From Escherichia coli (GTDB taxonomy: Bacteria > Pseudomonadota > Gammaproteobacteria > Enterobacterales > Enterobacteriaceae), in assembly GCF_017348835.2 (NCBI RefSeq), contig NZ_CP072312.1: a stretch of DNA of 64,000 bases, one strand, 5' to 3'. Shown one piece after another: positions 1 to 1,837 of the stretch (its first letter is position 1; every line of letters starts with the position of its first letter). The position numbers are program-made.

Positions 1-1837
1 TGACAGACTTTCTGCTGGGACACCTGCGTCCGGGTGAACCGCCCCGGGTTTCCTGGAGAGTGTTTTATCTGTGAACTCAGGCTGCCAGATCATCGTTTCC
101 GATGGAAGCATAATAAGCTTTTTCTGCTTCTGCCGGGGGAGTATGGCCCAGCCTTTCCAGCAATCGTCGATTGTTATACCAGTCCACCCACGTGAGTGTG
201 GCCAGTTCCACTTCTGCACGGTTTTTCCAGCTCTTACGGTGTATTACCTCCGCTTTGTAAAGACCATTGATGCTCTCCGCCATCGCGTTGTCATACGAGT
301 CGCCAGTACTCCCTGTTGATGCCAGTAATCCGGCTTCCTTAAGCCGCTGCGTGTAGGCCAGCGATACATACTGAGAACCTTTATCACTGTGATGGATTGT
401 GCCGGACGGCCGACGGGCCCACAACGCCTGCTCCAGTGCATCCAGCACGAATGTTGTTTCCATGGATGATGAGACCTGCCATCCCACGATGTATCCGGCG
501 AACACATCAATGATGAACGCCACATAAACGAAGCCCTGCCATGTGCTTACCCAGGTAAAATCAGCCACCCACAACTGGTCTGGACGTTCTGCCACGAACT
601 GACGGTTTACGCGGTCGCATGCGGCAACGGCTTTCCGGCTGACGGTAGTGCGGACCTTTTTACCCCGGAGAACACCGGCAAGTCCCATAACTGCCATGAG
701 ACGTGCCACAGTGCATCTGGCCACTCTGATACCTTCCCGTAACAACTGACGCCAGACTTTACGCACACCGTATACCTGGTGATTTTCATCGTATACGCGC
801 TGTATCTCTTTCTTCAGCCAGTCATCGTGCTGCGCACGGGCACTGCGTTTATCCGGATGATGTCGCTGTTGCTGACAATGGTAATACGTTGACGGGGCAA
901 TATGCAGTTCGCTGCATACCGGTCCGACCCCGTACTGCTCACGCAGCTTATCCAGCAGTGGCATTATTTTTTCCAGAGGCGGTCGAACTCCGCCTTCGCA
1001 AAATAAGCGGAAGCCTGGCGAAGGATATCGTTACTGCGGCGCAGTTCACGATTTTCACGTTCCAGCTCTTTCAGACGCTGACGTTCAGCGGTGGTGAGTC
1101 CACCATCACCACTCCCGGTATCCCGCTCATGCTGGCGAACCCAGACACGCAGAGTCTCCGGCGTACAGCCAATCTTTGGAGCAATGGAACAAATTGTCGC
1201 CCATTGTGAGTCATATTCATCCTGACTTTCCAGAACCATACGAATCGCCCGCTGACGGACTTCGGGGGAAAAACGAGTATTTTTAGTCATCCTGTTTACC
1301 TCTTTCTCAGGGAGTTTAGTCTCCAGGATTTCCGGGGCGGTTCAGCCATAAAGTTATGTTCCTGACGTATGTATTCGTCCCGCAGGAATCAACCAACTGA
1401 TTTATCTGAATTTATCATGCCCCTCAACTCTGATTTTATTCATCTTGTTTACCGAATCGGGTATATCTGATAACTGTCCCGATAAGACTTTTTGTTTCGC
1501 CAGCATAATCTCTTTTTCAAGCTTTTGAAGTTCTTTTATATAGTCATTCTTCCCTTCTTCATCAGCCGGTGAAATGCTCTCAGGAAGACGCTTCATTGAC
1601 TCATCTACAGCATCATCCATTCTGTCAAGAGCTTCAAGAAGCTCCTTTTTATCCATTGATGACTGAAGTACACTCATATTCCTTGCAAGAACTTGCATGC
1701 TTTCATCAAGTTCTTCTGCCACTGTAATCCCCCCACACAAAAAATATAATGCCATACCACAGCTGATTATAACTTTATTGCTTTTCTGCATAATTTCTCC
1801 TTCATGAGGGAGGTGCCCTCCCTCATCAGTTTTATCA

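What the first reader, a model, noticed from the sequence alone, without database searches (positions are those of the whole stretch)
1804..1826. Perfect 10-bp stem-loop between katP and the b562-like gene
atgagggagg-tgc-cctccctcat lies between the katP stop and the next start without a following U-run on the coding strand. It may attenuate read-through or stabilise the katP transcript end, which would set the expression ratio of the two genes.
Basis: seen in the sequence. Interest (0 to 1): 0.3.

Follow-up and report, generated by a model that had tools for sequence, protein, structure and literature searches.

The report
Conserved hairpin between katP and b562
The 10-bp stem-loop between the plasmid catalase-peroxidase gene katP and the small cytochrome b562 gene behind it is real and kept by evolution; it looks like an old terminator stem that lost its U-run and now sits inside a two-gene operon, which makes it an ordinary, uncharacterised kind of mRNA element.

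Summary
At 1804-1826 there is a perfect 10-bp stem with a 3-nt loop (-16.2 kcal/mol). On the coding (-) strand it starts 8 nt after the katP stop and ends 12 nt before the start of a cytochrome b562-family gene. No U-run follows it there.

It is not chance. Eight diverged lineages that keep the katP-like then b562-like gene order carry a hairpin at the same place. These include Yersinia katY-cybC, with KatP identity down to 75% and b562 identity down to 35%. The core GGGA/UCCC never changes. The four outer pairs change by compensatory double substitutions. The three wobble pairs are G·U only on the mRNA-sense strand.

Unrelated katG genes end in the same GGGGAG...CUCCCC stem plus a U-tract, which is a canonical terminator. 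The element is single-copy and matches no Rfam family.

Best reading (about 0.45): a terminator-derived intercistronic mRNA hairpin. It lets transcription run on into b562, leaves the b562 Shine-Dalgarno site free, and probably blocks 3' exonucleases, so it helps set the KatP:b562 ratio. Real attenuation is unlikely in this lineage because the tail is GAAGGAGA. No transcript data were available. This is a new member of a known kind, of low-to-moderate interest.

The parts
1804..1826 (-). Intercistronic RNA hairpin. On the - strand: 5' arm AUGAGGGAGG at 1826-1817, loop GCA at 1816-1814, 3' arm CCUCCCUCAU at 1813-1804.
   Evidence: -16.2 kcal/mol. Conserved with compensatory changes in 8 lineages. 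The covariance model hits only this junction.
1835..4045 (-). katP, periplasmic catalase-peroxidase, 736 aa. Stop UGA at 1837-1835.
   Evidence: 100% match to the katP annotation in NZ_CP022052.2.
1827..1834 (-). 8-nt spacer UAAAACUG between the katP stop and the hairpin. It begins with a second in-frame stop, UAA at 1834-1832.
   Evidence: In relatives the hairpin starts 4-9 nt after the stop.
1792..1803 (-). GAAGGAGAAAUU: the Shine-Dalgarno site (GAAGGAG, 1803-1797) and spacer of the b562 gene. It abuts the 3' arm and is predicted to be single-stranded.
   Evidence: Mean P(unpaired) of the SD region is 0.76, and 0.91 with a ribosome placed on the katP stop.
1402..1791 (-). Cytochrome b562-family gene (L7018 in pO157), 129 aa, with a signal-peptide-like N-terminus.
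   Evidence: The protein was detected in the O157:H7 proteome (PMC3686733).
77..1290 (-). IS3-family insertion sequence ORFs flanking the module on the b562 side.
   Evidence: annotated as IS3 family transposase.
4218..5431 (-). Second, near-identical IS3-family copy flanking the module on the katP-promoter side.

Best explanation
The stem-loop is a cis-acting structure of the katP-b562 bicistronic mRNA. It descends from the intrinsic terminator that ends katG-type genes elsewhere.

In the KatP/KatY clade a b562 gene lies directly behind it, and the U-tract has decayed. The tail is still U-rich in Yersinia and one E. coli lineage, but is replaced by the b562 Shine-Dalgarno site in pO157. RNA polymerase therefore reads through and b562 is expressed from the katP promoter.

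The stem itself has been kept. It most likely works after transcription in two ways. First, as a stable barrier that stops 3'-to-5' exonucleases, so katP-only decay or processing products outlast the b562 segment. Second, as a structural insulator that keeps the adjacent Shine-Dalgarno site unpaired. Together these would set the KatP:b562 ratio.

Shown: the structure, its position, its conservation by compensatory change, its sense-strand bias, the free Shine-Dalgarno site, and the lack of a U-tract.

Inferred: co-transcription in E. coli, the terminator ancestry, and the stabiliser and insulator activities.
For: - Structure: perfect 10-bp stem, -16.2 kcal/mol, z about -4.
- Same position in 8 lineages. 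KatP identity runs from 97.6% to 74.6% and b562 identity from 92% to 35%, while the flanking spacer cannot be aligned.
- Pair counts: 98.4% of cells paired. 4 of 8 pairs have changes on both sides (12 cells). 0 of 500 shuffles reach the covariation score or the percentage paired. Slid registers fall to 52-75% paired.
- Three G·U pairs (L011, L106, L133) would be A·C mismatches on the other strand.
- A covariance model built from 4 lineages recovers the held-out lineages. In 277 kb, every match with E below 1 lies at this junction. In 527 kb around 80 distant katG genes the best match has E = 0.9.
- b562 homologues not preceded by katP lack the hairpin.
- Canonical katG terminators in metagenomes have the same GGGGAG..CUCCCC stem plus a U6-8 tract and no b562 gene, with terminator scores of +40 to +55. 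The window scores -49; L097 and Yersinia are intermediate at -12 and -23.
- The Shine-Dalgarno site is unpaired, and no alternative pairing appears when a ribosome is placed on the katP stop.
- katY-cybC-cybB was shown to be co-transcribed (PMC2231364).
- KatY and CybC protein levels change in opposite directions under iron starvation (0.23x vs 4.7x; PMC2835676). The two cistrons can therefore be uncoupled after or beside transcription.
Against: - No experimental 3'/5'-end, half-life or reporter data exist for this spacer.
- Two related katG-b562 loci do without the element. Citrobacter has a 28-nt spacer with no hairpin. Salmonella has a 138-nt spacer with different hairpins. The element is therefore not obligatory.
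- The invariant GGGA/UCCC core is more sequence conservation than a pure exonuclease barrier needs.
- The pair counts rest on a hand-made, arms-only structural alignment of 8 lineages. One Yersinia bulge was removed, and one L133 cell is counted although its loop would be too small.
- The terminator ancestry comes from a pattern search that required the core motif, so it is biased.
Confidence: 0.45

Rival explanations
1. Leaky intrinsic terminator (attenuator) on the coding strand. Part of the polymerases stop at the hairpin, which lowers b562 transcription relative to katP.
For: The stem is of terminator type and matches canonical katG terminators. In L097 and Yersinia the stem is followed by UCUUAUUAU and UAUUUAU, and the consensus scan flags both on the sense strand.
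Against: In the window, L105, L011 and L002 the first 8 nt after the stem hold 0-1 U. L095 has 2 and L133 has 3. The window tail is purine-rich. Scores run from -28 to -74, against +40 to +55 for true terminators. Selection kept the stem but not the U-tract.
Confidence: 0.15
2. Translation-level device. The stem is a Shine-Dalgarno mimic (GGGAGG) paired to an anti-SD mimic (CCUCCC). It sits at the mRNA-channel entrance of a ribosome stopped on the katP stop codon. It would either insulate b562 initiation from katP termination or bring terminating ribosomes close to the b562 start.
For: The purine-rich, SD-like core is invariant in all 8 lineages while the outer pairs vary. The hairpin always starts 4-9 nt after the stop, and in 4 lineages it ends 12 nt before the AUG.
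Against: Folding with a ribosome footprint on the stop opens only the lowest 2-6 pairs. It creates no pairing of the 3' arm with the real SD. The SD-to-AUG geometry is not conserved: the distance from hairpin to AUG ranges from 12 to about 40 nt. The same core occurs in ordinary terminators of unrelated katG genes, so no ribosome-related explanation is needed.
Confidence: 0.15
3. Terminator for antisense transcription on the + strand, shielding katP from transcripts that enter from the b562 or IS side.
For: The scan flags the + strand in the window (tail CAGUUUUAUC) and the antisense strand in L002 and L095.
Against: The T-rich antisense tail is the complement of the Lys/Asn codons plus the UAA/UGA stop of katP, so coding explains it. 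Its score is still negative, at -34. The G·U pairs are sense-specific. No antisense promoter-like site was found.
Confidence: 0.05
4. DNA-level palindrome: a protein-binding or recombination/insertion site.
For: An IS3-family element is inserted inside the 5' arm in one O145 plasmid. A rearrangement breakpoint in L102 falls in the loop.
Against: Loop length varies from 3 to 6 nt and arm length from 8 to 16 bp. The outer arms change sequence freely as long as they pair. The wobble pairs are tolerated only as RNA. The element is single-copy per replicon.
Confidence: 0.05
5. Functionless relic of the ancestral katG terminator.
For: The U-tract is lost. The hairpin is absent from the Citrobacter and Salmonella arrangements.
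Against: 12 compensatory cells in 4 pairs, and 98% pairing, across lineages whose surrounding spacer cannot be aligned.
Confidence: 0.1

Closest known systems
Intrinsic (Rho-independent) terminators of katG-type genes
   Same: GC-rich stem with a G-rich 5' arm and a C-rich 3' arm (GGGGAG..CUCCCC), placed a few to about 30 nt after the stop codon, often preceded by an A-rich stretch.
   Different: The coding strand has no U-tract here. The element lies inside an operon, 12 nt before the next start codon, and must be read through for b562 to be expressed.
Intercistronic stabiliser stem-loops of polycistronic mRNAs (e.g. the REP hairpins between malE and malF, and the puf and pap operon hairpins; from established literature, recalled, not re-read here)
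   Same: A stable hairpin between two co-transcribed genes. The expected effect is a longer-lived upstream segment and unequal expression of the two cistrons.
   Different: It is not a member of a repeat family: one copy per replicon, always at this junction. No decay or processing data exist for it.
Engineered tunable intergenic regions (hairpins placed between cistrons to set expression ratios; recalled)
   Same: The same architecture: stop codon, then hairpin, then a free ribosome-binding site.
   Different: This one is natural, has a single hairpin, and no demonstrated RNase E site.
katY 5'-UTR RNA thermometer of Yersinia (PMC10358904)
   Same: The same operon family; an RNA structure involved in post-transcriptional control.
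   Different: That element is in the 5' UTR and masks the ribosome-binding site. This one is 3' of the catalase gene, is a perfect GC-rich stem, and does not contain the SD or the AUG. The paper does not mention cybC or a terminator.

Membership tests
Intrinsic (Rho-independent) terminator | GC-rich stem-loop of about 5-12 bp with a short loop | tested here: met
   10 bp, 6 G-C pairs, loop of 3, -16.2 kcal/mol.
Intrinsic (Rho-independent) terminator | U-rich tract directly 3' of the stem on the transcribed strand | tested here: not met
   The sense tail is GAAGGAGA, with 0 U in 8 nt; score about -49 against +40 to +55 for canonical katG terminators. The + strand tail CAGUUUUAUC passes only the permissive scan; its score is -34.
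Intrinsic (Rho-independent) terminator | Transcript 3' ends map just after the stem | not testable with these tools
   No Term-seq or 3' RACE data for pO157 could be retrieved.
Intercistronic mRNA stabiliser hairpin | Stable stem-loop in the untranslated spacer of two co-transcribed genes | tested here: met
   The hairpin fills 23 of the 43 nt between katP and b562. No promoter-like site lies in 1300-4300. Co-transcription was shown only for the Yersinia orthologues (PMC2231364), so for E. coli it is inferred.
Intercistronic mRNA stabiliser hairpin | Pairing maintained by selection (compensatory substitutions) | tested here: met
   4 of 8 pairs changed on both sides, 98.4% of cells paired, 0 of 500 shuffles as high.
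Intercistronic mRNA stabiliser hairpin | The upstream mRNA segment ends at the hairpin and outlives the downstream segment | not testable with these tools
   Needs Northern blots, half-life measurements or 3'-end mapping.
REP/BIME-type repeated palindromes | Many dispersed copies per genome sharing a consensus | tested here: not met
   Present in 471 of 5426 complete E. coli genomes, median 1 place per genome, 474 of 476 places on plasmids. Every listed row lies at the katP|b562 junction or on the b562 gene. No second copy in the window within 3 mismatches.
SD-sequestering or translational-coupling hairpin, and RNA thermometer | The Shine-Dalgarno site and/or start codon of the regulated gene lies inside the stem | tested here: not met
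   The SD GAAGGAG lies 3' of the stem. Its P(unpaired) is 0.76, and 0.91 with a ribosome on the katP stop. The stem is perfect and GC-rich, unlike fourU or ROSE thermometers.
Recoding signal (SECIS, or a read-through or frameshift stimulator) | A specific stop or slippery codon upstream and an open frame beyond it | tested here: not met
   UGA is followed at once by an in-frame UAA. The stop is UAA in five of the eight lineages (L002, L095, L097, L106, L133).
Any curated Rfam family | Covariance-model match | tested here: not met
   cmscan of 1300-4300 at E up to 10 gives only one chance-level snoRNA hit elsewhere.

The most novel reading that the evidence does not exclude
The invariant GGGAG/CUCCC core is not just a strong stem. 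It would be a self-paired Shine-Dalgarno/anti-Shine-Dalgarno mimic placed at the entry of the mRNA channel of the ribosome that terminates on katP. Melting of its base by that ribosome would hand the 30S subunit over to the b562 start, or withhold it. That would make it a terminator-derived, ribosome-sensing coupling element conserved from pO157 to Yersinia katY-cybC.
Probability: 0.1. Interest if true: 0.5.

Novelty: new member of a known kind. Interest (0 to 1): 0.25.

Why it matters
KatP/KatY are periplasmic catalase-peroxidases of enteric pathogens, and their b562 partner has no established role. A conserved RNA element between the two genes suggests that their expression ratio is under selection. 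It also gives a simple handle for uncoupling the genes experimentally: stem mutants, and a natural allele with an IS element inside the stem.

It is also a clean natural case of a terminator stem kept after its U-tract was overwritten by the next gene's ribosome-binding site. That is relevant to how operons grow by capturing downstream genes, and to terminator predictors that would miss or mis-strand such elements. None of this would change current understanding of RNA-based regulation.

Tried and rejected
- Rfam scan of 1300-4300: no family.
- Repeat-family idea: no second copy in the window, and single-copy in E. coli genomes.
- KatP search of genome contigs: returned only katG genes at 58-66% identity from unrelated phyla. 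None has a b562 gene downstream or a model hit at the gene end. It served only as a negative control. Yersinia and the close relatives had to be reached through protein searches and contig look-ups instead.
- MAFFT alignment of the whole hairpins put L002 and L095 one column out of register. I counted pairs on arms-only 16-mers instead.
- Switch hypothesis (3' arm pairs with the real SD when a ribosome opens the 5' arm): constrained folding gives no such structure.
- Recoding or SECIS: rejected because of the tandem in-frame stop and the UAA stops in relatives.
- Small ORFs starting at the AUGs inside or abutting the stem: neither AUG is conserved. L105 has CAUAAA at the 3' one, and L002, L095 and L097 lack the 5' one.
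- Literature: no paper on this spacer. Garcia et al. 1999 on katY is not held. The EHEC Term-seq paper has no supplements held. The Sakai Ribo-seq supplements do not mention katP or pO157.
- PDB sequence search with the b562-like protein: no hit.

Full report
**1. What is there**

The window is a pO157-type plasmid segment, 100% identical over 1300-4300 to NZ_CP022052.2. On the - strand:
- katP runs 4045..1835 (736 aa; NCBIfam catalase/peroxidase, 1212 bits).
- A 129-aa cytochrome b562-family gene runs 1791..1402 (Pfam PF07361, 2e-14 over the whole profile). This protein (L7018) has been detected in O157:H7 proteomes (PMC3686733).

The 43-nt spacer reads, in mRNA sense: UGA UAAAACUG AUGAGGGAGG GCA CCUCCCUCAU GAAGGAGAAAUU AUG.

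The stem-loop alone folds at -16.2 kcal/mol. The 91-nt context folds with z = -3.98, and 0 of 200 shuffles fold as well. Perfect stems of 10 bp or more with 3-8 nt loops occur 0.57 times per 64-kb shuffle. That is about 4e-4 for this particular spacer.

**2. It is conserved by compensatory change**

I reached relatives through homologues of the b562 protein and of KatP, then through contig look-ups, plasmid records and one metagenome pattern scan. Eight lineages keep the order katP-like gene then b562-like gene and carry a hairpin that starts 4-9 nt after the stop codon.

| Lineage | KatP / b562 identity | Hairpin (5' arm - loop - 3' arm) | Notes |
|---|---|---|---|
| window | 100% / 100% | AUGAGGGAGG-GCA-CCUCCCUCAU | |
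| L105 | 97.6% / 92% | AUGAGGGAG-GGAAU-CUCCCUCAU | |
| L011 | 97.6% / 90% | AUGAGGGA-GGUAUA-UCCCUUAU | one G·U pair |
| L002 | 89% / 57% | (UUU)CCGGGGGA-GCCC-UCCCCCGG(AAA) | |
| L095 | 87% / 53% | CAGGGGGA-GUC-UCCCCCUG | |
| L133 | 86% / 51% | AGGGGGGG-AGAU-CCCCCCUU | one G·U pair |
| L097 | 75% / 35% | AUUGGGGAG-GUUC-CUCCCCAAU | |
| L106 (Y. pseudotuberculosis katY-cybC) | 75% / no tblastn hit; Pfam b562 | UAAAUAGAGGGGAGGA-UUUA-UCUUCCCCCUCUAUUUA | 16 bp, one bulge, one G·U pair |

The rest of the spacer cannot be aligned between these lineages.

I counted pairs on an arms-only alignment of the 8 shared pairs:
- 98.4% of cells pair.
- The four inner pairs (GGGA/UCCC) never vary.
- All four outer pairs show changes on both sides (12 cells).
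- 0 of 500 shuffles reach the covariation score or the paired fraction.
- Sliding the register drops pairing to 52-75% (7-lineage version).

Caveats: the alignment is hand-made, the lineages are few, one Yersinia bulge was removed, and one L133 cell is counted although its loop would be too small.

The three wobble pairs are G·U in the mRNA sense and would be A·C mismatches on the other strand. That points to an RNA structure of the coding strand rather than a DNA palindrome or an antisense RNA.

**3. Specificity**

- A covariance model built from four lineages recovered the held-out lineages L002, L095 and L106. In 277 kb, every match with E below 1 lies at this junction.
- The model found no match better than E = 0.9 in 527 kb around 80 distant katG genes. 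None of those has b562 downstream.
- b562 homologues that are not preceded by katP (L100, L101, L103, L104, L096) have no such hairpin.
- The element is single-copy. It is found in 471 of 5426 complete E. coli genomes. 464 of these are at least 99% identical, 474 of 476 places are on plasmids, and every listed row lies at the katP|b562 junction or on the b562 gene.
- It is not universal. A Citrobacter locus has a 28-nt spacer without a hairpin, and a Salmonella locus has a 138-nt spacer with unrelated hairpins.

**4. Where it comes from**

The metagenome scan required the end of katG plus the motifs RGGGAG...TCCCY, so it is biased toward this core. Apart from pO157 copies and L133, it returned mostly katG genes of unrelated bacteria. 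In those, the same stem is flanked by an A-tract and a U6-8 tract, and no b562 gene follows. Examples are AAAGGGGAGC-AACAUA-GCUCCCCUUUUUU and AACGGGGGAGUAUUGAAUACUCCCCCGUUUUUU. These are textbook intrinsic terminators.

I applied a classical terminator score. The formula is recalled from d'Aubenton-Carafa et al. 1990 and used with modern folding energies, so it is rough.

| Sequence | Score |
|---|---|
| Canonical katG terminators | +40 to +55 |
| L097 (tail UCUUAUUAU) | -12 |
| Yersinia (tail UAUUUAU) | -23 |
| Window, sense strand | -49 |
| Window, + strand | -34 |

The simple scan agrees with this picture. It flags L097 and Yersinia on the sense strand. It flags the window, L002 and L095 only on the antisense strand. 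There the T-rich tail is simply the complement of the AAA/AAU codons and the UAA/UGA stop of katP.

The most economical history is this. An ancestral katG terminator was kept when b562 came to lie behind it. Its U-tract then decayed, and in the compact lineages the b562 ribosome-binding site overwrote it.

**5. How it most likely works**

- b562 has no promoter-like site of its own and starts 12 nt after the stem, so it must be expressed by read-through.
- The Yersinia orthologues katY-cybC-cybB are co-transcribed by RT-PCR (PMC2231364).
- The Shine-Dalgarno site GAAGGAG is predicted to be unpaired (0.76). It stays unpaired when a ribosome is placed on the katP stop (0.91). That ribosome would melt only the two lowest pairs, and no alternative pairing of the CCUCCC arm with the SD appears.
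- I therefore favour (about 0.45) a post-transcriptional role. The stem would block 3' exonucleases, so katP-only species outlast the b562 segment. It would also shield the adjacent ribosome-binding site from pairing with upstream sequence. Both effects bear on the KatP:b562 ratio.
[quoted passage not shown] Yersinia has a longer spacer, however, that could hold its own promoter.

Everything about activity is inference. I found no transcript-end or stability data.

**6. Rivals**

- Leaky sense-strand termination (0.15): plausible for Yersinia and L097, but not for pO157.
- A ribosome-related role of the SD-like invariant core (0.15).
- Functionless relic (0.10): argued against by the compensatory changes.
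- Antisense terminator (0.05).
- DNA-level site (0.05).

Recoding is excluded by the in-frame UAA directly after the UGA and by the UAA stops in relatives. An RNA thermometer or SD-masking hairpin is excluded because the SD lies outside a perfect GC-rich stem.

**7. Verdict**

This is a new, apparently undescribed member of a known kind, the terminator-derived intercistronic stem-loop. Interest is low to moderate.

Noticed in passing
L113 (NZ_CP031920.1, E. coli O145:NM FWSEC0002 plasmid) 1180-1200 and 2490-2536; corresponds to window 1822-1824: An IS3-family element (ends TGAACCGCCCCGGG...) is inserted inside the 5' arm of the hairpin, with a 3-bp duplication GAG. katP is annotated as frameshifted there. 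This is a natural hairpin-disruption allele.
   Followed up: partly
L102 (NZ_CP148272.1) about 2950-3000, compared with L133 4002-4036: A b562 homologue that has lost katP. Its homology to a katP+b562 locus begins exactly at the 3' arm (TCCCCCC) of the hairpin, so a rearrangement breakpoint lies in the loop. Together with the IS insertion, this hints that the palindrome is fragile or a preferred target.
   Followed up: partly
window 77-1290 and 4218-5431 (- strand): Two near-identical IS3-family copies (orfA/orfB pairs) in the same orientation bracket the b562-katP module. This gives a composite-transposon-like layout. The left copy ends only about 55 nt after the b562 stop, so any original operon terminator may have been removed.
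   Followed up: no
window 49649-49703: A 27-nt perfect palindrome, ATGATAATATAAGTAAAGCCCCGAAAA / TTTTCGGGGCTTTACTTATATTATCAT, with a GC core flanked by A and T runs. It has the look of a bidirectional terminator and is the longest inverted repeat in the window.
   Followed up: no
L106 (Yersinia pseudotuberculosis) 4715-4792; literature: Yersinia has 40 nt more between the hairpin and cybC than pO157 has. KatY and CybC protein levels move in opposite directions under iron starvation (PMC2835676). An extra promoter or regulator site may lie in that spacer.
   Followed up: no
KatP vs b562 identities across L002, L095, L133, L097: The b562 partner diverges much faster than KatP (KatP 89/87/86/75% against b562 57/53/51/35%). 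This means either relaxed or diversifying selection on the small periplasmic protein, or replacement of the downstream gene at the hairpin junction.
   Followed up: no
L002-L010, 5342-8390: In the lineage with 89% KatP identity, a two-partner secretion pair (ShlB/POTRA transporter and a TPS-domain exoprotein) follows the katP-b562 module.
   Followed up: no
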